Source of the DNA: the human T2T-CHM13v2.0 reference genome, Homo sapiens
DNA length: 64,000 nt
Strand: one strand, 5' to 3'
Assembly: GCF_009914755.1 (NCBI RefSeq)
Contig: NC_060942.1
Under the pieces are notes generated by a model. The model worked only from the letters and a program-made list of their open reading frames with translations, did not search any database and was not told where the DNA came from. This document shows, one piece after another, positions 32,011-36,600 of the stretch (positions within the stretch are counted from its first letter, which is position 1; the number at the start of each line of letters is the position of its first letter). The position numbers and the translations under genes are program-made.

Positions 32011-32300
32011 GGCTGGGCACGGTGGCTCACCCCTGTAATCCCACCACTTTGGGAGGCCGAGGAGGGCGGATCGTTTGAGATCAGGAGTTCGAGGCCAGCT
32101 GGGCAACATGGTGAGAACCCGTCTCTACTAAAACTCCAAAAATTAGCTGGGCATGCTGGCCTATGCCTGTAGTCCCAGCTGCTCGGAAGGCTGAGGCTGG
32201 AGAATTGCTTGAACCCAGGAGGTGGAGGTTGCGGTGAGCCGAGATTGTGCCACTGCACTCCAGCCTGGGAAACAGAAGGAGATTCTATCTCAAAACACAC
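32011..32300 (+). mobile_element. Complete Alu spanning the left-arm/spacer boundary; its mirror at 33652-33893 is truncated
   Basis: TSD-like aaaaaagcagtctg (31997-32010) and aaaaaagtctg (32313-32323). Confidence 0.92.
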
Positions 32301-33651
32301 ACACGCCCCCCCAAAAAAGTCTGGCCCCATTTTCATAAAGCAAGTGTGCTGTGCTGGGGGTCTCTTCCAGCCTCCAGATGCCTCTGACTCTCCAAAGACT
32401 GAAGGCCGAAATGGCTAAGTCATCCCAACAGCAAAGATGGCGGCCTGATCCTCCTCCTGGAAAGTCCCACAGAGTGAGGTTTAAGATGTCTGCCGGCCAA
32501 GGAATACCAGTGGAAGTGGCTGGAGACCCCGGTTGGGAGGTCCCACAAAGTCAGGAGAAACAGGATCCAGGACACTCTTAAGAAAGAAGCCTGGCCATGT
32601 TTTCATAGAACAGCCGTGCTGCGCTGTGCTGTGCTGTGCTGTGCTACCACTTCTACCGCAGGTTGGCCTGCAGTCTCTGAAGGCCGAAGGCTGGAATGGC
32701 TAAGTCGCCCAAATGGCAAAGATGTGGCCTGCCCCTCTTTCTGAGAGGTCCCACAGAGCAAGGTTTAAGATGTCTGTCGGCCAAGGAACACTGGTGCGGG
32801 TGGCTGGAGACCCCATTTGGGAGGTCCTACAAAGTGAAGAGAAACGGGATCCAGGACACGCTTAAGAAAGCAGCCTGGCCCTGTGATGAGAAACGGGATC
32901 CAGGACATGCTTAAGAAAGCAGCCTGGCCAAGTTTTTGTAGAACAGCTCTGCTGTGCTGTACTAGAGGAACACTTCTGCCGCAGGTTGGTCTGCACACTC
33001 TGAAGGCCAAAGGCTGGAATGGCTAAGCCACCCAAGTGGCAAAGATGGCCCGCCTCTCCCTCTGGGAGCCCCATCCTAGGGAGGAGTCAAATCTGTGTTA
33101 GCTGGAGACCACTGGCAAGAGTAGCTGAAGACCCCAGTTGAGAGCTCCCTCCCAGTGAAGAGACACAGAAACAGGGACCTGCTTATAAAAGCAGTCTGGC
33201 CTCATTTCACAGGGCAGCTGTGATGTGCTGGGGGACCCCATCCACATCCACCTCTCTATGGGCTTAAAAAAAGCAGCCTGGCCATGTATTTGCAAAACAG
33301 CCCCTCGTTGACTATTTTTAGTGGGTCCCCAGTCGTGGTATTCTCTGGCCAACAGAGATCTGAAACCTTTCTGAACATACCAGAAGGAGAAATGGGCTGA
33401 CATCTTTGTTGTTTGGGCAGCTTAGCCATTGCATTTTTTCGAGCTTTGGAGATTCCAAGCCCATGTGGTGGGGGGCGGTAGCAGAGCAGTGGGACCTCCC
33501 AGAAGGAGAGGCAGGCCAACATCTTTGCCACTTGGGCGACTTAGCCATTCCAGCCTTTGGCCTTCAGAGAGTGCAGGCCAACCTGGGGCAGAAGTGGTCC
33601 CCCAGCACAGCACAGCACAGCACAGCACGACACAGCTGTTCTACAAAAACA
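32253..33651. repeat. Palindrome spacer made of further L1 5'UTR monomers with an internal orientation switch near 33300
   Basis: Monomers with 'ggctggaatggctaag...caaagatgg' on +, then reverse-complement monomers from ~33315; ~42-bp near-tandem duplication at 32839-32929. Confidence 0.85.
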
Positions 33652-36600
33652 TGGTGCAATCTCGGCTCACCACAACCTCCGCCTCCTGGGTTCAAGCAAT
33701 TCTCCAGCCTCAGCCTTCCGAGCAGCTGGGACTACAGGCATAGGCCAGCATGCCCAGCTAATTTTTGGAGTTTTAGTAGAGACGGGTTCTCACCATGTTG
33801 CCCAGCTGGCCTCGAACTCCTGATCTCAAACGATCCGCCCTCCTCGGCCTCCCAAAGTGGTGGGATTACAGGGGTGAGCCACCGTGCCCAGCCCAGACTG
33901 CTTTTTTAAAGTGGGCTGCCGATCCTGTTCCTCCTTAATGTGTGAGACTTCCTGGCAGGGGTCTTCAACTACCCCTGCCAGTGTCTGCCAGCCAACAGAG
34001 GTTTCCAACCTCCCTGGGATGAAGCTCTCAGAGGCAGAGGCAGGCTGCTACCTTTGCCATTTGGGTGGCTTAGCCATTCCAGCTTGTGGGCTTTGGAGTG
34101 TTCTAGGTGACTGGGGGCTGAAGCGCGGACCCTTAGCACAGCGCAGCTGGTCTACAAAAACGAGGCCAGACTGCTTTTTAAAGGGGGCCCCGATCTTGTT
34201 CCTCCTCACTGGGCAGGGCCTCCCAACTGTGGTCTCCAGCCACCTCCTACAGGTGTGTTTGGGCCACCAACAGGTCCATACCTCTCAGGGACAGACCTCT
34301 TGGAGGGAGGGGCAGGCCGCCATCTTTGCTGTTTCACAGCCTTCACTCGTGTTACCTCTAGATATGGAAGATCCGAGCTGGCTAGGGACAGGATTGGGCC
34401 CCCAGCATACTGCAGCAGCCCTACAGGAAAGTCTCCAGAGTGTCACGTGGATGCCCATTACCGTATCTTTTCAGGGGGCTGGTCCTCTGGGCCTGGGCTT
34501 CCAGCAATCTCCCACCAGAGATGCCAAGCCAATAGCAGCCCTGCAATGCCCTGAACAGAGCCTCCAGGAGCAACTGAAAGCCTCTCTGCCACTGCCTCTA
34601 CAGTGGAACTACCCTTGCTACCTTTGGACTAATGAAGCAGCAAAGACCCTACCTGCCTTATCCACACCTCCAGCAGGCTGCAGTTGACCCAAAAAGAGGA
34701 GGCCAGTCCATCTCTCAATGCTTAAAAAAAAAGTAGGCAGTCTGGCCATCTTTTCATCGAGCAGCTGTGCTGTGCTGGGGGTACGCTCCCATTCCTGGTC
34801 ACGGGGTTCACTTCCAAGCCAGAAAGCTGGATCCGCCCAGCCACCAAAACTGCAAAGATGGCAGGTTGCCCCTCCCCTTAGGAGCTCTGTCGCAGGGAGG
34901 CCTCAAACCTCTGTCAGCTGGAGAGCACTGGCAAGAGTGCCTGGAGACTCCAGTCGGGAGGTCCCGCTCAGTGAGGATGGCGTGTGGCTGGGCTAGGCTG
35001 GCACCTGCCACCCCCGATCGGCTTGAACCCTCTAAAGCCTGCAGGATGCAATGGCTAAGTTGCCCCAACAGCAAAGATGGCGGCCTGCCTCTCCTTCTTG
35101 GAGGTTCATCCTGGGGAGGTTTCAGATCTCTGTCAGGTGGAAAACACCGGGATCAGGGACCCGCTTAAAAGGGCCAACTGGGGGCTGCTCTACGAAAACG
35201 TGGCCAGACTGCTTTTTCAAGTGGGTCCCTGATCCCGTTCCTCTTCACTGGGTGGGAGCTTTCAACTGGGGTGTCCAGCCACCCTTGCCAGTGTTCTCTG
35301 GCTGACAGACGTCCCAAATCTCCTTGAGATGGAGCTCCCAGGGAGTGCGGTAGGCCACCATCTCTTCTATTTGGGCAACTTAGCCCTTCCAGCCTTCGGG
35401 CTCAGAAGTGAACGAGGAGATCGGGGACGGAAGCAGACCCCCAGCACAGCACAGCACAGCACAGCACAGCACAGCACAGCACAGCACAGCACAACACAGC
35501 TGCTCAACAGAACGATGCACAGACTGGTTTTTCAAAAAAACGTAGTGCTGTTTTCTAAAAACAGGCACAATTGCTTACGCCGGTAATCCCAGCACTTTGG
35601 GAGGCTGAGGTGGGCAGATCATGAGGTCAGCAGTTGGAGATCAGCCTGGCCAGCATGGTGACACGGCCTCTTGACTAAAAGTACAAAAAGTTAGCCAGGC
35701 GTGGTGGCGTGCACCTGTAGTCCCAGCTACTCGGGAGGCTGAGGCAGGAGAATTGCTTGAACCTAGCAGGCAGAGGTTGCAGTGAGCCCAGATTGTGCCA
35801 CTACACTCCAGCCTGGGTGGCAGAGTGAGACTCTCTCAAAAAAAAAAGGAAAAAAGAAAAGTGGCCCCAATACTTTTCTGAGTGAGGCTTCTCCTCACTC
35901 AGCGGGACCTGTCAACCGAGGTCTCTCCAGCTACCTCCTACAGATGCATTCAGGCCGTCAACAGCTCCATACCTCCCTGGGACAGGGCTTCCAGTGGGAG
36001 GGGCAGGCCACCATCTTTGCTGTTTTGCAACCTTCATACCTCCAGGTGCTGAAAAATCCAAGGTGACTAGGGACTGGAGCAGGCCCTCAGCATACTGCAG
36101 CAGCCCTACAGAAAGTGGCCACACTGTTACATGGGTGCCCATTCCCGAAACTCCTCACCTGGCAGGTCCTCTAGCCACCCCTCGCCAGACCTATGGAGCC
36201 AGTGGCAGCTCGGCAACTCCATTGACACAGCCTCCAGGGGCAACTGAAAGCCTCTCTGCCACTGCCTCTGCAGTGGAACTGCCCTTGCTACCCTTGGACT
36301 AGTGAAGGAGCAAAGACCCTATGTCCTTGATCCACACCTCCAACGAGCTGCAGTTGACCCAAGGAGAGGAGGCCAGTCCATCTCCCATGGGCCCCACATG
36401 CTCCCCTCTGCTCACTACCAGACAGGGAACCCCCGGCTTGGGCCCACAGCACAGACACTCCAACCTGGGCTGATTGCACTGAGTGAATGCTGACCTGCAT
36501 CTCTATGGGTGGAGCCCCCAGGAGACACGCGAAAGACCCTTGGCCACAGCCACTACTAAGGTCCCTTTCTCTGTGCCTCCAAGTTGGGGAAGGAACATAA

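What the first reader, a model, noticed from the sequence alone, without database searches (positions are those of the whole stretch)
32011..33893. The Alu arrangement suggests the spacer has already flipped
Seen: the right arm is continuous with the rest of the old L1 (ORF1, ORF2 and 3' end to 42300), so it looks like the original copy. Yet its Alu is truncated at 33652. The complete Alu with both TSDs, plus the remaining 5'UTR monomers, is attached to the left arm, which is truncated in ORF1 at 28602. Reverse-complementing the spacer restores an uninterrupted 5'UTR-Alu-ORF1-ORF2 element on the right. The inner junction 'aaaaacatgg|tgcaatc' shares TGG(C) microhomology between monomer and Alu. 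Inference: a microhomology-mediated template switch created the duplication, and the spacer has since inverted an odd number of times, so this haplotype carries the derived orientation.
Basis: partly seen in the sequence, partly recalled or inferred. Interest (0 to 1): 0.8.

Follow-up and report, generated by a model that had tools for sequence, protein, structure and literature searches.

The report
Known flipping spacer in L1 palindrome
This is a small DNA palindrome made from a duplicated piece of an old L1 element on human chromosome 18, and its 1.4-kb middle piece is already catalogued as a common inversion polymorphism, so the structure is real but one genome cannot show which orientation came first.

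Summary
The arms are 28602-32252 and 33652-37308, about 3.65 kb each, and differ by 9 transitions and 2 indels (99.75% identical). They enclose a 1399-bp spacer, 32253-33651. The arms are one duplicated locus: the 5' part of an old L1 carrying two Alu passengers. The complete Alu and the distal monomers continue from the left arm into the spacer. The right arm begins inside that Alu, at a monomer|Alu junction with TGG(C) microhomology, and runs on into ORF1, ORF2 and the 3' end.

Porubsky et al. 2023 list a balanced inversion at T2T chr18:12308193-12309706, which is window 32193-33706. In 44 samples it is heterozygous in 16 and homozygous in 1. T2T-CHM13 carries the major orientation. GRCh38 carries the minor one, which by geometry is the "intact L1" arrangement.

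The polarity claim, that this haplotype is derived, is not established. The present order can be a primary product, made by two template switches, by a fold-back, or by an inversion with a duplication at one breakpoint. I could reach no outgroup. The finding is real but already known, and of low to moderate interest.

The parts
21526..28600 (-). Young L1PA element. Its poly-T is at 21526-21534. Its 5' end lacks about 38 nt. ORF1 is open for 338 aa at 26700-27716.
   Evidence: Transposase_22 1e-59; Exo_endo_phos; RVT_1. The chr22 paralog of the same insertion is full length.
26514..26809 (.). Alu inserted in the L1PA. It is absent from the chr22 paralog, and the alignment blocks overlap by about 12 bp at the site.
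28601..28602 (.). Outer junction, L1PA nt ~38 joined to old-L1 ORF1. There is no microhomology, and base 28601 (T) matches neither side.
28602..32252 (-). Left arm. It holds the old L1 from about codon 136 of ORF1 back through the 5'UTR into Alu1. It continues without a break into the spacer.
30046..30345 (-). Second Alu (Alu2), present in both arms. Its mirror copy lies at about 35565-35864.
30412..30463 (.). (GCTGT)n microsatellite. The right arm has one more unit, at 35489-35493.
32011..32312 (+). Complete Alu1 with target-site duplications. It spans the boundary between the left arm and the spacer at 32252/32253.
32253..33651 (.). Single-copy spacer. It holds the Alu1 3' end, about 3.5 L1 5'UTR monomers, and one inverted monomer block at 33310-33651.
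32193..33706 (.). Published polymorphic inversion interval, T2T chr18:12308193-12309706. It includes the diverged inner 30 bp of each arm.
33652..33654 (.). TGG microhomology at the inner junction, where the monomer meets Alu1-internal sequence.
33652..37308 (+). Right arm. It starts with the truncated Alu1 copy (33652-33893, minus orientation) and continues through the 5'UTR to about codon 136 of ORF1.
37309..42297 (+). Rest of the old L1: the ORF1 RBD and dsRBD domains, decayed ORF2, and the 3' end. It is present once and is contiguous with the right arm.

Best explanation
A single rearrangement duplicated, in inverted orientation, about 3.65 kb of the 5' part of an old L1. That piece already carried two Alu insertions. 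The same event removed whatever lay between the L1 and the neighbouring L1PA, together with about 38 nt of the L1PA 5' tip. The result is a palindrome with a 1.4-kb spacer.

Since then, exchange between the arms has kept their interiors nearly identical. Intrachromatid non-allelic homologous recombination (NAHR) between the arms inverts the spacer. Both orientations now segregate in humans. T2T-CHM13 has the commoner one and GRCh38 the rarer one.

Shown: the anatomy, the two junctions, the uniqueness of the arms, and the polymorphism (from the literature).

Inferred: the mechanism of origin (template switching or fold-back repair), gene conversion between the arms, and the age bound.

Not determinable from this haplotype: which orientation was the primary product.
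For: Anatomy and uniqueness.

The arms are one locus. Both contain the same Alu1 flank and the same Alu2, and both carry the same unusual internal 5'UTR layout of two X segments and inverted monomer blocks. That layout is absent from all 7 other family copies examined.

Polymorphism. Porubsky 2023 Table S1 lists chr18:12308193-12309706, 1514 bp, verdict 'pass', category 'inv', supported by PAV (assembly-based calling) and Strand-seq. Of 44 samples, 16 are heterozygous, 1 is homozygous inverted, 25 are homozygous for the T2T orientation and 2 have non-simple codes; 6 calls are flagged low confidence. Table S4 equates GRCh38 chr18:12145103-12146503 with CHM13 chr18:12308251-12309652 and labels it 'GRCh38.minor'. 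Crick reads number 450 of 617 on CHM13 and 168 of 621 on hg38 (method passages).

Concerted evolution. Four of the 9 arm mismatches lie in the last 30 bp next to the spacer. The probability is 5.6e-7 if mismatches were spread uniformly, and 2.8e-4 allowing for where the CpG sites lie. Derived states occur in both arms. Interior divergence is 0.14%, against 13% at the inner edge.

Age bound. The chr22 paralog shares the L1PA 3' flank at 95.9% identity over 15.5 kb and keeps the L1PA 5' tip that chr18 lacks. The chr18 outer junction is therefore probably younger than that duplication.

General behaviour of palindromes. Spacer inversions arise by intrachromatid NAHR, and orientation between species is close to random (Jackson 2021 passages).
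Against: - No outgroup or pre-duplication allele was seen, so the single origin and its date are inferences.
- The outer junction has no microhomology, so a purely microhomology-mediated replicative event is not demonstrated.
- The cluster at the inner edge is only 4 changes at 3 CpG sites. It is denser than ordinary CpG decay predicts for any age allowed by the chr22 bound, so escape from gene conversion alone may not explain it.
- Identity between the chr18 and chr22 L1PA copies falls to 88-93% from about 27100 to 28600. I could not explain this, and it weakens the use of chr22 as a witness for the ancestral L1PA tip.
Confidence: 0.88

Rival explanations
1. The primary product kept the original L1 intact on the right (A-rc(d)-s-d-e, the GRCh38-like order). 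The T2T orientation then arose from it by an odd number of NAHR flips.
For: Flipping is real and common. A leading-strand fold-back onto the lagging-strand template behind the fork would leave the spacer contiguous with the original arm; this is mechanistic reasoning of my own and no call tests it. Flipping the spacer does restore one collinear L1, as the geometry shows.
Against: The same two junctions and the same switch distances give the T2T order directly. A hairpin-capped fold-back intermediate is symmetric apart from the spacer, so either orientation can be retained. T2T is the major allele; under neutral theory, which I recall rather than tested, the major allele is more likely the older one within humans.
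Confidence: 0.47
2. One-step origin in the present orientation. The segment s+d was inverted and d was duplicated at one breakpoint, either by a staggered break with fill-in or by two template switches. In this case the 'intact L1' order in GRCh38 is the secondary NAHR product.
For: The geometry fits exactly. [quoted passage not shown] T2T is the major allele.
Against: A 3.65-kb stagger is long, and Ranz et al. themselves note the difficulty of unwinding that much DNA. There is no outgroup. Toggling can erase any signal from allele frequency.
Confidence: 0.41
3. The arms are two independent L1 insertions, or an L1 twin-priming inversion, rather than a later duplication.
For: Most human inversions under 2 kbp arise from L1 twin priming (Porubsky 2021 preprint abstract).
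Against: The arms share post-insertion Alu1 and Alu2 at identical sites. They are 99.75% identical, whereas family copies are at most 81%. No target-site duplications were found. The published call is a balanced 'inv' supported by Strand-seq.
Confidence: 0.01
4. The spacer is misoriented in the assembly, either in T2T-CHM13 or in GRCh38.
For: GRCh38 contains 26 misorientations (Porubsky 2023).
Against: This site is classed as polymorphic ('GRCh38.minor'), not as a misorientation. Heterozygotes and one homozygote are recorded, and both PAV and Strand-seq support the call.
Confidence: 0.01

Closest known systems
Balanced human inversion polymorphisms flanked by inverted repeats (Porubsky et al. 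2022 and 2023 call sets; Aguado 2014; Giner-Delgado 2019)
   Same: High-identity inverted arms, a single-copy inverted segment, and both orientations common in the population. This very site is listed in the 2023 call set.
   Different: The site is small: a 1.4-kb spacer with 3.65-kb arms. The arms are a local duplicate of part of one old L1, not two dispersed L1 copies or large segmental duplications. I could not see its recurrence status or ancestral state, because the 2022 Cell tables are not held.
Sex-chromosome palindromes (human X P1-P26, Y P1-P8)
   Same: Arm identity above 99%, arm-to-arm exchange, spacer inversions by intrachromatid NAHR, and rearrangement concentrated around the centre of symmetry (Jackson 2021 passages).
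   Different: This palindrome is autosomal, about ten to a thousand times smaller, carries no genes, and is built from retroelement debris.
Inversions with inverted duplication of breakpoint sequence (staggered-break model, Ranz et al. 2007)
   Same: The inverted segment is bounded by an inverted duplicate of sequence that was single-copy before, and the duplication is at one breakpoint only.
   Different: That model rests on Drosophila fixed inversions and is not shown for this locus. Here the segment can afterwards flip back and forth because the duplicates remain nearly identical.
Replicative inverted duplications
   Same: An inverted copy lies next to its source with a short spacer, the inner junction has 3-4 bp of microhomology, and a deletion accompanies the event at the outer junction.
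   Different: The outer junction has 0 bp of microhomology and one unmatched base. No de novo event or parental allele is available.

Membership tests
Inversion polymorphism mediated by inverted repeats (NAHR) | High-identity inverted repeats flank the inverted segment | tested here: met
   The arms are about 3651 bp and 99.75% identical.
Inversion polymorphism mediated by inverted repeats (NAHR) | Both orientations segregate in the population | tested here: met
   From the literature tables: 16 heterozygous and 1 homozygous inverted of 44 samples, and a 72.9% versus 27.1% split of Strand-seq reads.
Inversion polymorphism mediated by inverted repeats (NAHR) | Breakpoints fall inside the repeats | tested here: met
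   The published interval 32193-33706 overruns the spacer by 60 bp on the left and 55 bp on the right. That is just past the arm-specific variants at 32223-32249 and 33655-33681.
Inversion polymorphism mediated by inverted repeats (NAHR) | Recurrence, meaning the same inversion on unrelated haplotype backgrounds | not testable with these tools
   This needs phased human haplotypes. The 2022 Cell tables are not held.
Template-switch or fold-back inverted duplication | Microhomology at the novel junctions | tested here: inconclusive
   The inner junction has TGG(C), 3-4 bp. The outer junction has 0 bp and one unmatched T.
Template-switch or fold-back inverted duplication | A single-copy ancestral allele exists | not testable with these tools
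   No primate genomes are held. The chr22 paralog ends at the L1PA 5' end.
L1 twin-priming inversion | The inversion lies inside one L1 insertion, was made at integration, and is flanked by target-site duplications | tested here: not met
   The arms include the Alu1 and Alu2 insertions, so the duplication is later than those insertions. No target-site duplication was found for either L1.
Two independent L1 insertions in inverted orientation | Separate insertion sites, and divergence typical of the family | tested here: not met
   The arms are 99.75% identical, against at most 81% for the best other copy among 40 scored.

The most novel reading that the evidence does not exclude
The common T2T orientation is the primary product of a one-step inversion with duplication, formed after the chr18/chr22 segmental duplication. 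On this reading the apparently intact old L1 in GRCh38 is a secondary NAHR product, a reassembled element rather than the original. In addition, the last 30 bp of each arm next to the spacer would be a local hot spot of CpG mutation, created by repeated heteroduplex ends or by hairpin breathing, and not simply sequence that escaped gene conversion.
Probability: 0.35. Interest if true: 0.35.

Novelty: already known. Interest (0 to 1): 0.25.

Why it matters
The locus shows cleanly how one local inverted duplication of retroelement sequence creates a self-perpetuating inversion toggle. The two human reference assemblies differ here. It is also a caution: continuity of a repeat element across one arm-spacer boundary does not tell which spacer orientation is ancestral. 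For annotation, the old L1 looks interrupted in T2T-CHM13 and, by geometry, continuous in GRCh38, purely because of an ordinary polymorphism. No gene or regulatory consequence is evident. The site lies downstream of the last exon of the selected ANKRD62 transcript.

Tried and rejected
1. Target-site duplications. I compared the L1PA 3' flank with 28595-28660, with the reverse complement of 33590-33655, and with 37300-37370 on both strands. I also searched the whole window for the old L1 3' flank. Nothing exceeded 7 bp, so no ancestral adjacency could be rebuilt.

2. The chr22 paralog as an outgroup. chr22:17338747-17357040 matches window 26513-8463 at about 95.5-95.9%, and it carries the same L1PA. 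Its homology to chr18 ends at the L1PA 5' end. Beyond that point lies a duplicon shared with chr13 and chrY that has no L1PA. It therefore says nothing about the palindrome, apart from showing that the L1PA tip once existed.

3. A donor Alu for the diverged 30-bp inner edge. No other site in the window matches either edge version within 4 mismatches. A templated insertion from a nearby Alu is not supported.

4. The idea that all arm differences are CpG decay. This was rejected: 6 of the 9 are at CpG sites and 3 are not.

5. Literature on polarity or recurrence at this site.
- The Cell 2022, Nature Genetics 2020 and Science 2018 papers are not held.
- The supplement of the ape T2T paper is unreadable.
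- The NAHRwhals and HGSVC3 supplements have no matching row.
- Aguado 2014, Giner-Delgado 2019 and two 2026 inversion papers have no relevant chr18 text.
- A search for 'ANKRD62' with 'inversion' found only an unrelated goat paper.

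Full report
**1. What is there**

The window is T2T-CHM13 chr18:12276001-12340000. The repeat finder gives three abutting inverted pairs: 28602-30463 with 35447-37308, 30412-30900 with 35005-35493, and 30900-32252 with 33652-35004. Together they form one palindrome with arms 28602-32252 and 33652-37308 and 1399 nt between them. 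blastn joins them at 99.64% over 3652 columns.

A global alignment finds 9 mismatches inside the arms, all transitions. It also finds one extra GCTGT unit and one extra G in the right arm. The '100%' printed is therefore rounded; true identity is about 99.75%.

A 1439-bp Alu-free piece of the arm finds exactly two places at 100% in the whole T2T genome, namely the two arms. The best of the other 38 scored matches is 81%. The spacer finds only itself at 100%. Other copies of the same L1 family match at 66-76%.

**2. What the sequence is**

To the right of the right arm the sequence is L1 in plus orientation.
- Pfam finds the ORF1 RBD-like domain at 37575-37868 (1e-23).
- It finds the dsRBD-like domain at 37831-38052 (8e-18).
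- It finds an RT fragment at 39712-39972, at E 1.5e-5, which is below Pfam's curated cut-off.
- One search shows 75-82% collinear inverted matches to the neighbouring minus-strand L1PA out to 42169.

Scaling from the L1PA ORF1, the arm boundary at 37308 falls near codon 136 of ORF1.

The rest of each arm is a long 5'UTR built of roughly 270-290-bp monomers. I compared it with 7 other genomic copies of the family (L002-L008). All 7 show the plain order of tandem monomers, then a unique segment X, then ORF1. The chr18 element instead has two X segments (29523-30019 and 31187-31702) and two inverted monomer blocks (about 30740-31170 and 33310-33651). Those duplicates are only 71-77% alike, so this is an old rearrangement inside the element. 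It means that 33310-33651, at the end of the spacer, is collinear with the left copy and is not a separate recent inversion.

I could not determine the L1 subfamily, because no repeat library is available. By recall, the 3' end looks like the L1MA type.

**3.

All of them check out.
- A complete Alu reads plus-strand at about 32011-32312. It is flanked by AAAAAAGCAGTCTGG and AAAAAAG-TCTGG, and it crosses the arm boundary at 32252/32253.
- The right arm begins inside the same Alu at 33652 and reaches that Alu's start at 33893.
- The spacer carries the remaining Alu 3' end and about 3.5 further monomers.
- The inner junction reads ...aaaaaca|TGG|tgcaatc. TGG (33652-33654) belongs equally to the monomer and to the Alu. 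The monomer continues ...catggcc in its paralogs. A fourth shared base, C, is likely if the Alu CpG at that position was still intact at the time of the event.

The outer junction is different. The L1PA sequence ends at 28600, base 28601 (T) fits neither side, and the old L1 starts at 28602. There is therefore no microhomology at the outer junction.

**4. The flip is already in print**

Porubsky et al. 2023 (Genome Biol 24:100, PMC10150506) is the source. I saw the abstract, method passages, and Additional file 2 Tables S1 and S4.

Table S1 lists chr18:12308193-12309706 in T2T coordinates:
- It is 1514 bp, with Arbigent verdict 'pass' and category 'inv', supported by PAV (assembly-based calling) and Strand-seq.
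- That interval is window 32193-33706.
- Of 44 listed samples, 25 are 0|0, 16 are heterozygous, 1 is 1|1, and 2 carry non-simple codes. Six of the simple calls are flagged low confidence.
- According to the related preprint, three samples in this panel are trio children.
- That makes 18 inverted out of 84 called haplotypes.

Table S4 equates GRCh38 chr18:12145103-12146503 with CHM13 chr18:12308251-12309652:
- The interval is 1401 bp, which is the spacer to within 2 bp.
- It is labelled 'GRCh38.minor'.
- 450 of 617 Strand-seq reads are Crick on CHM13, and 168 of 621 are Crick on hg38.

So the spacer does invert in people. T2T-CHM13 has the commoner orientation, and GRCh38 has the other. By geometry, the GRCh38 orientation is the arrangement in which one uninterrupted L1 sits on the right. 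I did not see the GRCh38 sequence itself.

**5. Why the polarity claim does not follow**

Write the ancestral L1 as s-d-e, where s is the spacer sequence in L1 sense, d the arm and e the rest, with left flank A.
- The present order is A-rc(d)-rc(s)-d-e.

Both contain the same two novel junctions: A|rc(d), and Alu-internal|start-of-s, the latter merely reverse-complemented. Both can be written as two template switches over the same distances. The first switch is the 1.4 kb between the d|s boundary and the start of s. The second runs from ORF1 position 37308 to L1PA nt ~38.

A resected end that folds back and primes on itself gives a hairpin. The replicated form of that hairpin is symmetric apart from the spacer, so either orientation can be the one retained.

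An inversion of s+d with a staggered break across d also yields the present order directly. That model was proposed for Drosophila. [quoted passage not shown]

This part of my argument is reasoning from geometry and is not a computed test. Continuity of the Alu across the left boundary therefore does not show that a flip has happened.

**6. Signs of age and of exchange between the arms**

Four of the 9 mismatches (32223, 32232, 32248, 32249) lie in the last 30 bp beside the spacer, and one more (28610) lies 9 bp from the outer edge.
- Under a uniform spread, the probability of 4 or more of 9 falling in 30 of 3651 bp is 5.6e-7.
- Allowing for CpG positions (4 of 59 CpG sites lie in that edge), the probability of 4 or more of 6 CpG hits is 2.8e-4.
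- The edge changes are all CpG decay, and derived states occur in both arms. One CpG has decayed independently in each arm.
- Of all 9 mismatches, 6 are at CpG sites and 3 are not.
- Interior divergence is 0.14%, against 13% at the inner edge.

The simplest reading is that the palindrome is older than its interior identity suggests. Gene conversion between the arms would homogenise the interiors but fail to reach the last few tens of bases. Those bases then travel with the spacer, which fits the published interval overrunning the spacer by 55-60 bp on each side.

Using recalled human CpG mutation rates, four hits in eight CpG copies is more than plain decay predicts for any permitted age. Some local excess mutation may therefore be involved. 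With four events I leave this as unexplained.

**7. An upper age bound from a paralog**

The 3' kilobase of the L1PA has one 96% match, on chr22.
- chr22:17338747-17354214 aligns to window 26513-11010 at 95.9% over 15.5 kb and continues to window 8463.
- The L1PA 3' flank is the same in both copies, so it is the same insertion carried by a segmental duplication.
- The chr22 copy is full length and includes the roughly 38-nt tip that chr18 lacks.
- Its 5' flank belongs to a different duplicon, shared with chr13 and chrY. That duplicon has no L1PA, and its homology to chr22 stops exactly at the L1PA 5' end.

So the ancestral chr18 L1PA probably had its tip, and the palindrome's outer junction probably postdates the chr18/chr22 duplication. 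About 4% divergence corresponds to roughly 15-20 Myr at recalled substitution rates; this is an inference.

One caveat applies. Identity between the two L1PA copies drops to 88-93% from about 27100 to 28600, and I cannot explain the drop. The paralog gives no view of the state before the palindrome formed.

**8. Comparison with what is known**

The object is a member of the published class of balanced inversions flanked by inverted repeats. The Porubsky 2021 preprint (passages seen) reports:
- 72% of balanced inversions are flanked by segmental duplications or mobile elements;
- 22 inversions are flanked by L1 pairs;
- 40 inversions are recurrent.

It behaves like a miniature sex-chromosome palindrome. 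In those, intrachromatid NAHR inverts spacers, and about half of spacer orientations differ between species (Jackson 2021, passages).

It is not a twin-priming inversion and not a pair of independent L1 insertions, because the arms share post-insertion Alus and are 99.75% identical.

**9. Verdict**

The predicted flip is real but already catalogued. The claim that this haplotype is the derived one is undecided and cannot be settled from one haplotype.

Tables S2 and S8 of the 2022 Cell paper, which I could not open, may already hold the ancestral state and the recurrence call for this site.

Noticed in passing
window 21526-28600; chr22:17336935-17343730 (L009-L012): The same L1PA insertion sits on chr18 and on chr22. 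On chr22 its exact 5' end is the seam between the chr18-type duplicon and a duplicon shared with chr13 and chrY. Neither copy has a target-site duplication. Two independent rearrangement breakpoints therefore fall within about 38 nt of one L1 5' terminus.
   Followed up: partly
window 27100-28600 versus chr22:17336975-17338500: Identity between the two paralogous L1PA copies falls from about 96% to 88-93% over ORF1 and the 5'UTR. Gene conversion from another L1 or CpG decay might explain it, but this was not resolved.
   Followed up: partly
window 26514-26809: An Alu inside the L1PA is absent from the chr22 paralog, with about 12 bp of duplicated target. It probably inserted after the segmental duplication.
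   Followed up: partly
window 29523-31702 and 33310-33651 (mirrored in the right arm): The 5'UTR of the old L1 carries an ancient internal rearrangement: two copies of the unique segment X and two inverted monomer blocks, 71-77% alike. None of the 7 other family copies inspected has this layout. The region may have made small palindromes before.
   Followed up: partly
window 32223-32249 and 33655-33681: Four CpG transitions lie in the last 30 bp of the arms, and one CpG has decayed independently in both arms. This is denser than ordinary CpG decay would give for the permitted age.
   Followed up: partly
window 30412-30463 versus 35447-35493: The (GCTGT)n microsatellite differs by one unit between the arms. 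This is the only length difference apart from a single G.
   Followed up: yes
window 26700-27716, minus strand: ORF1 of the L1PA is still open for 338 codons and has all three ORF1 domains. ORF2 is broken into pieces of 579 aa and shorter.
   Followed up: no
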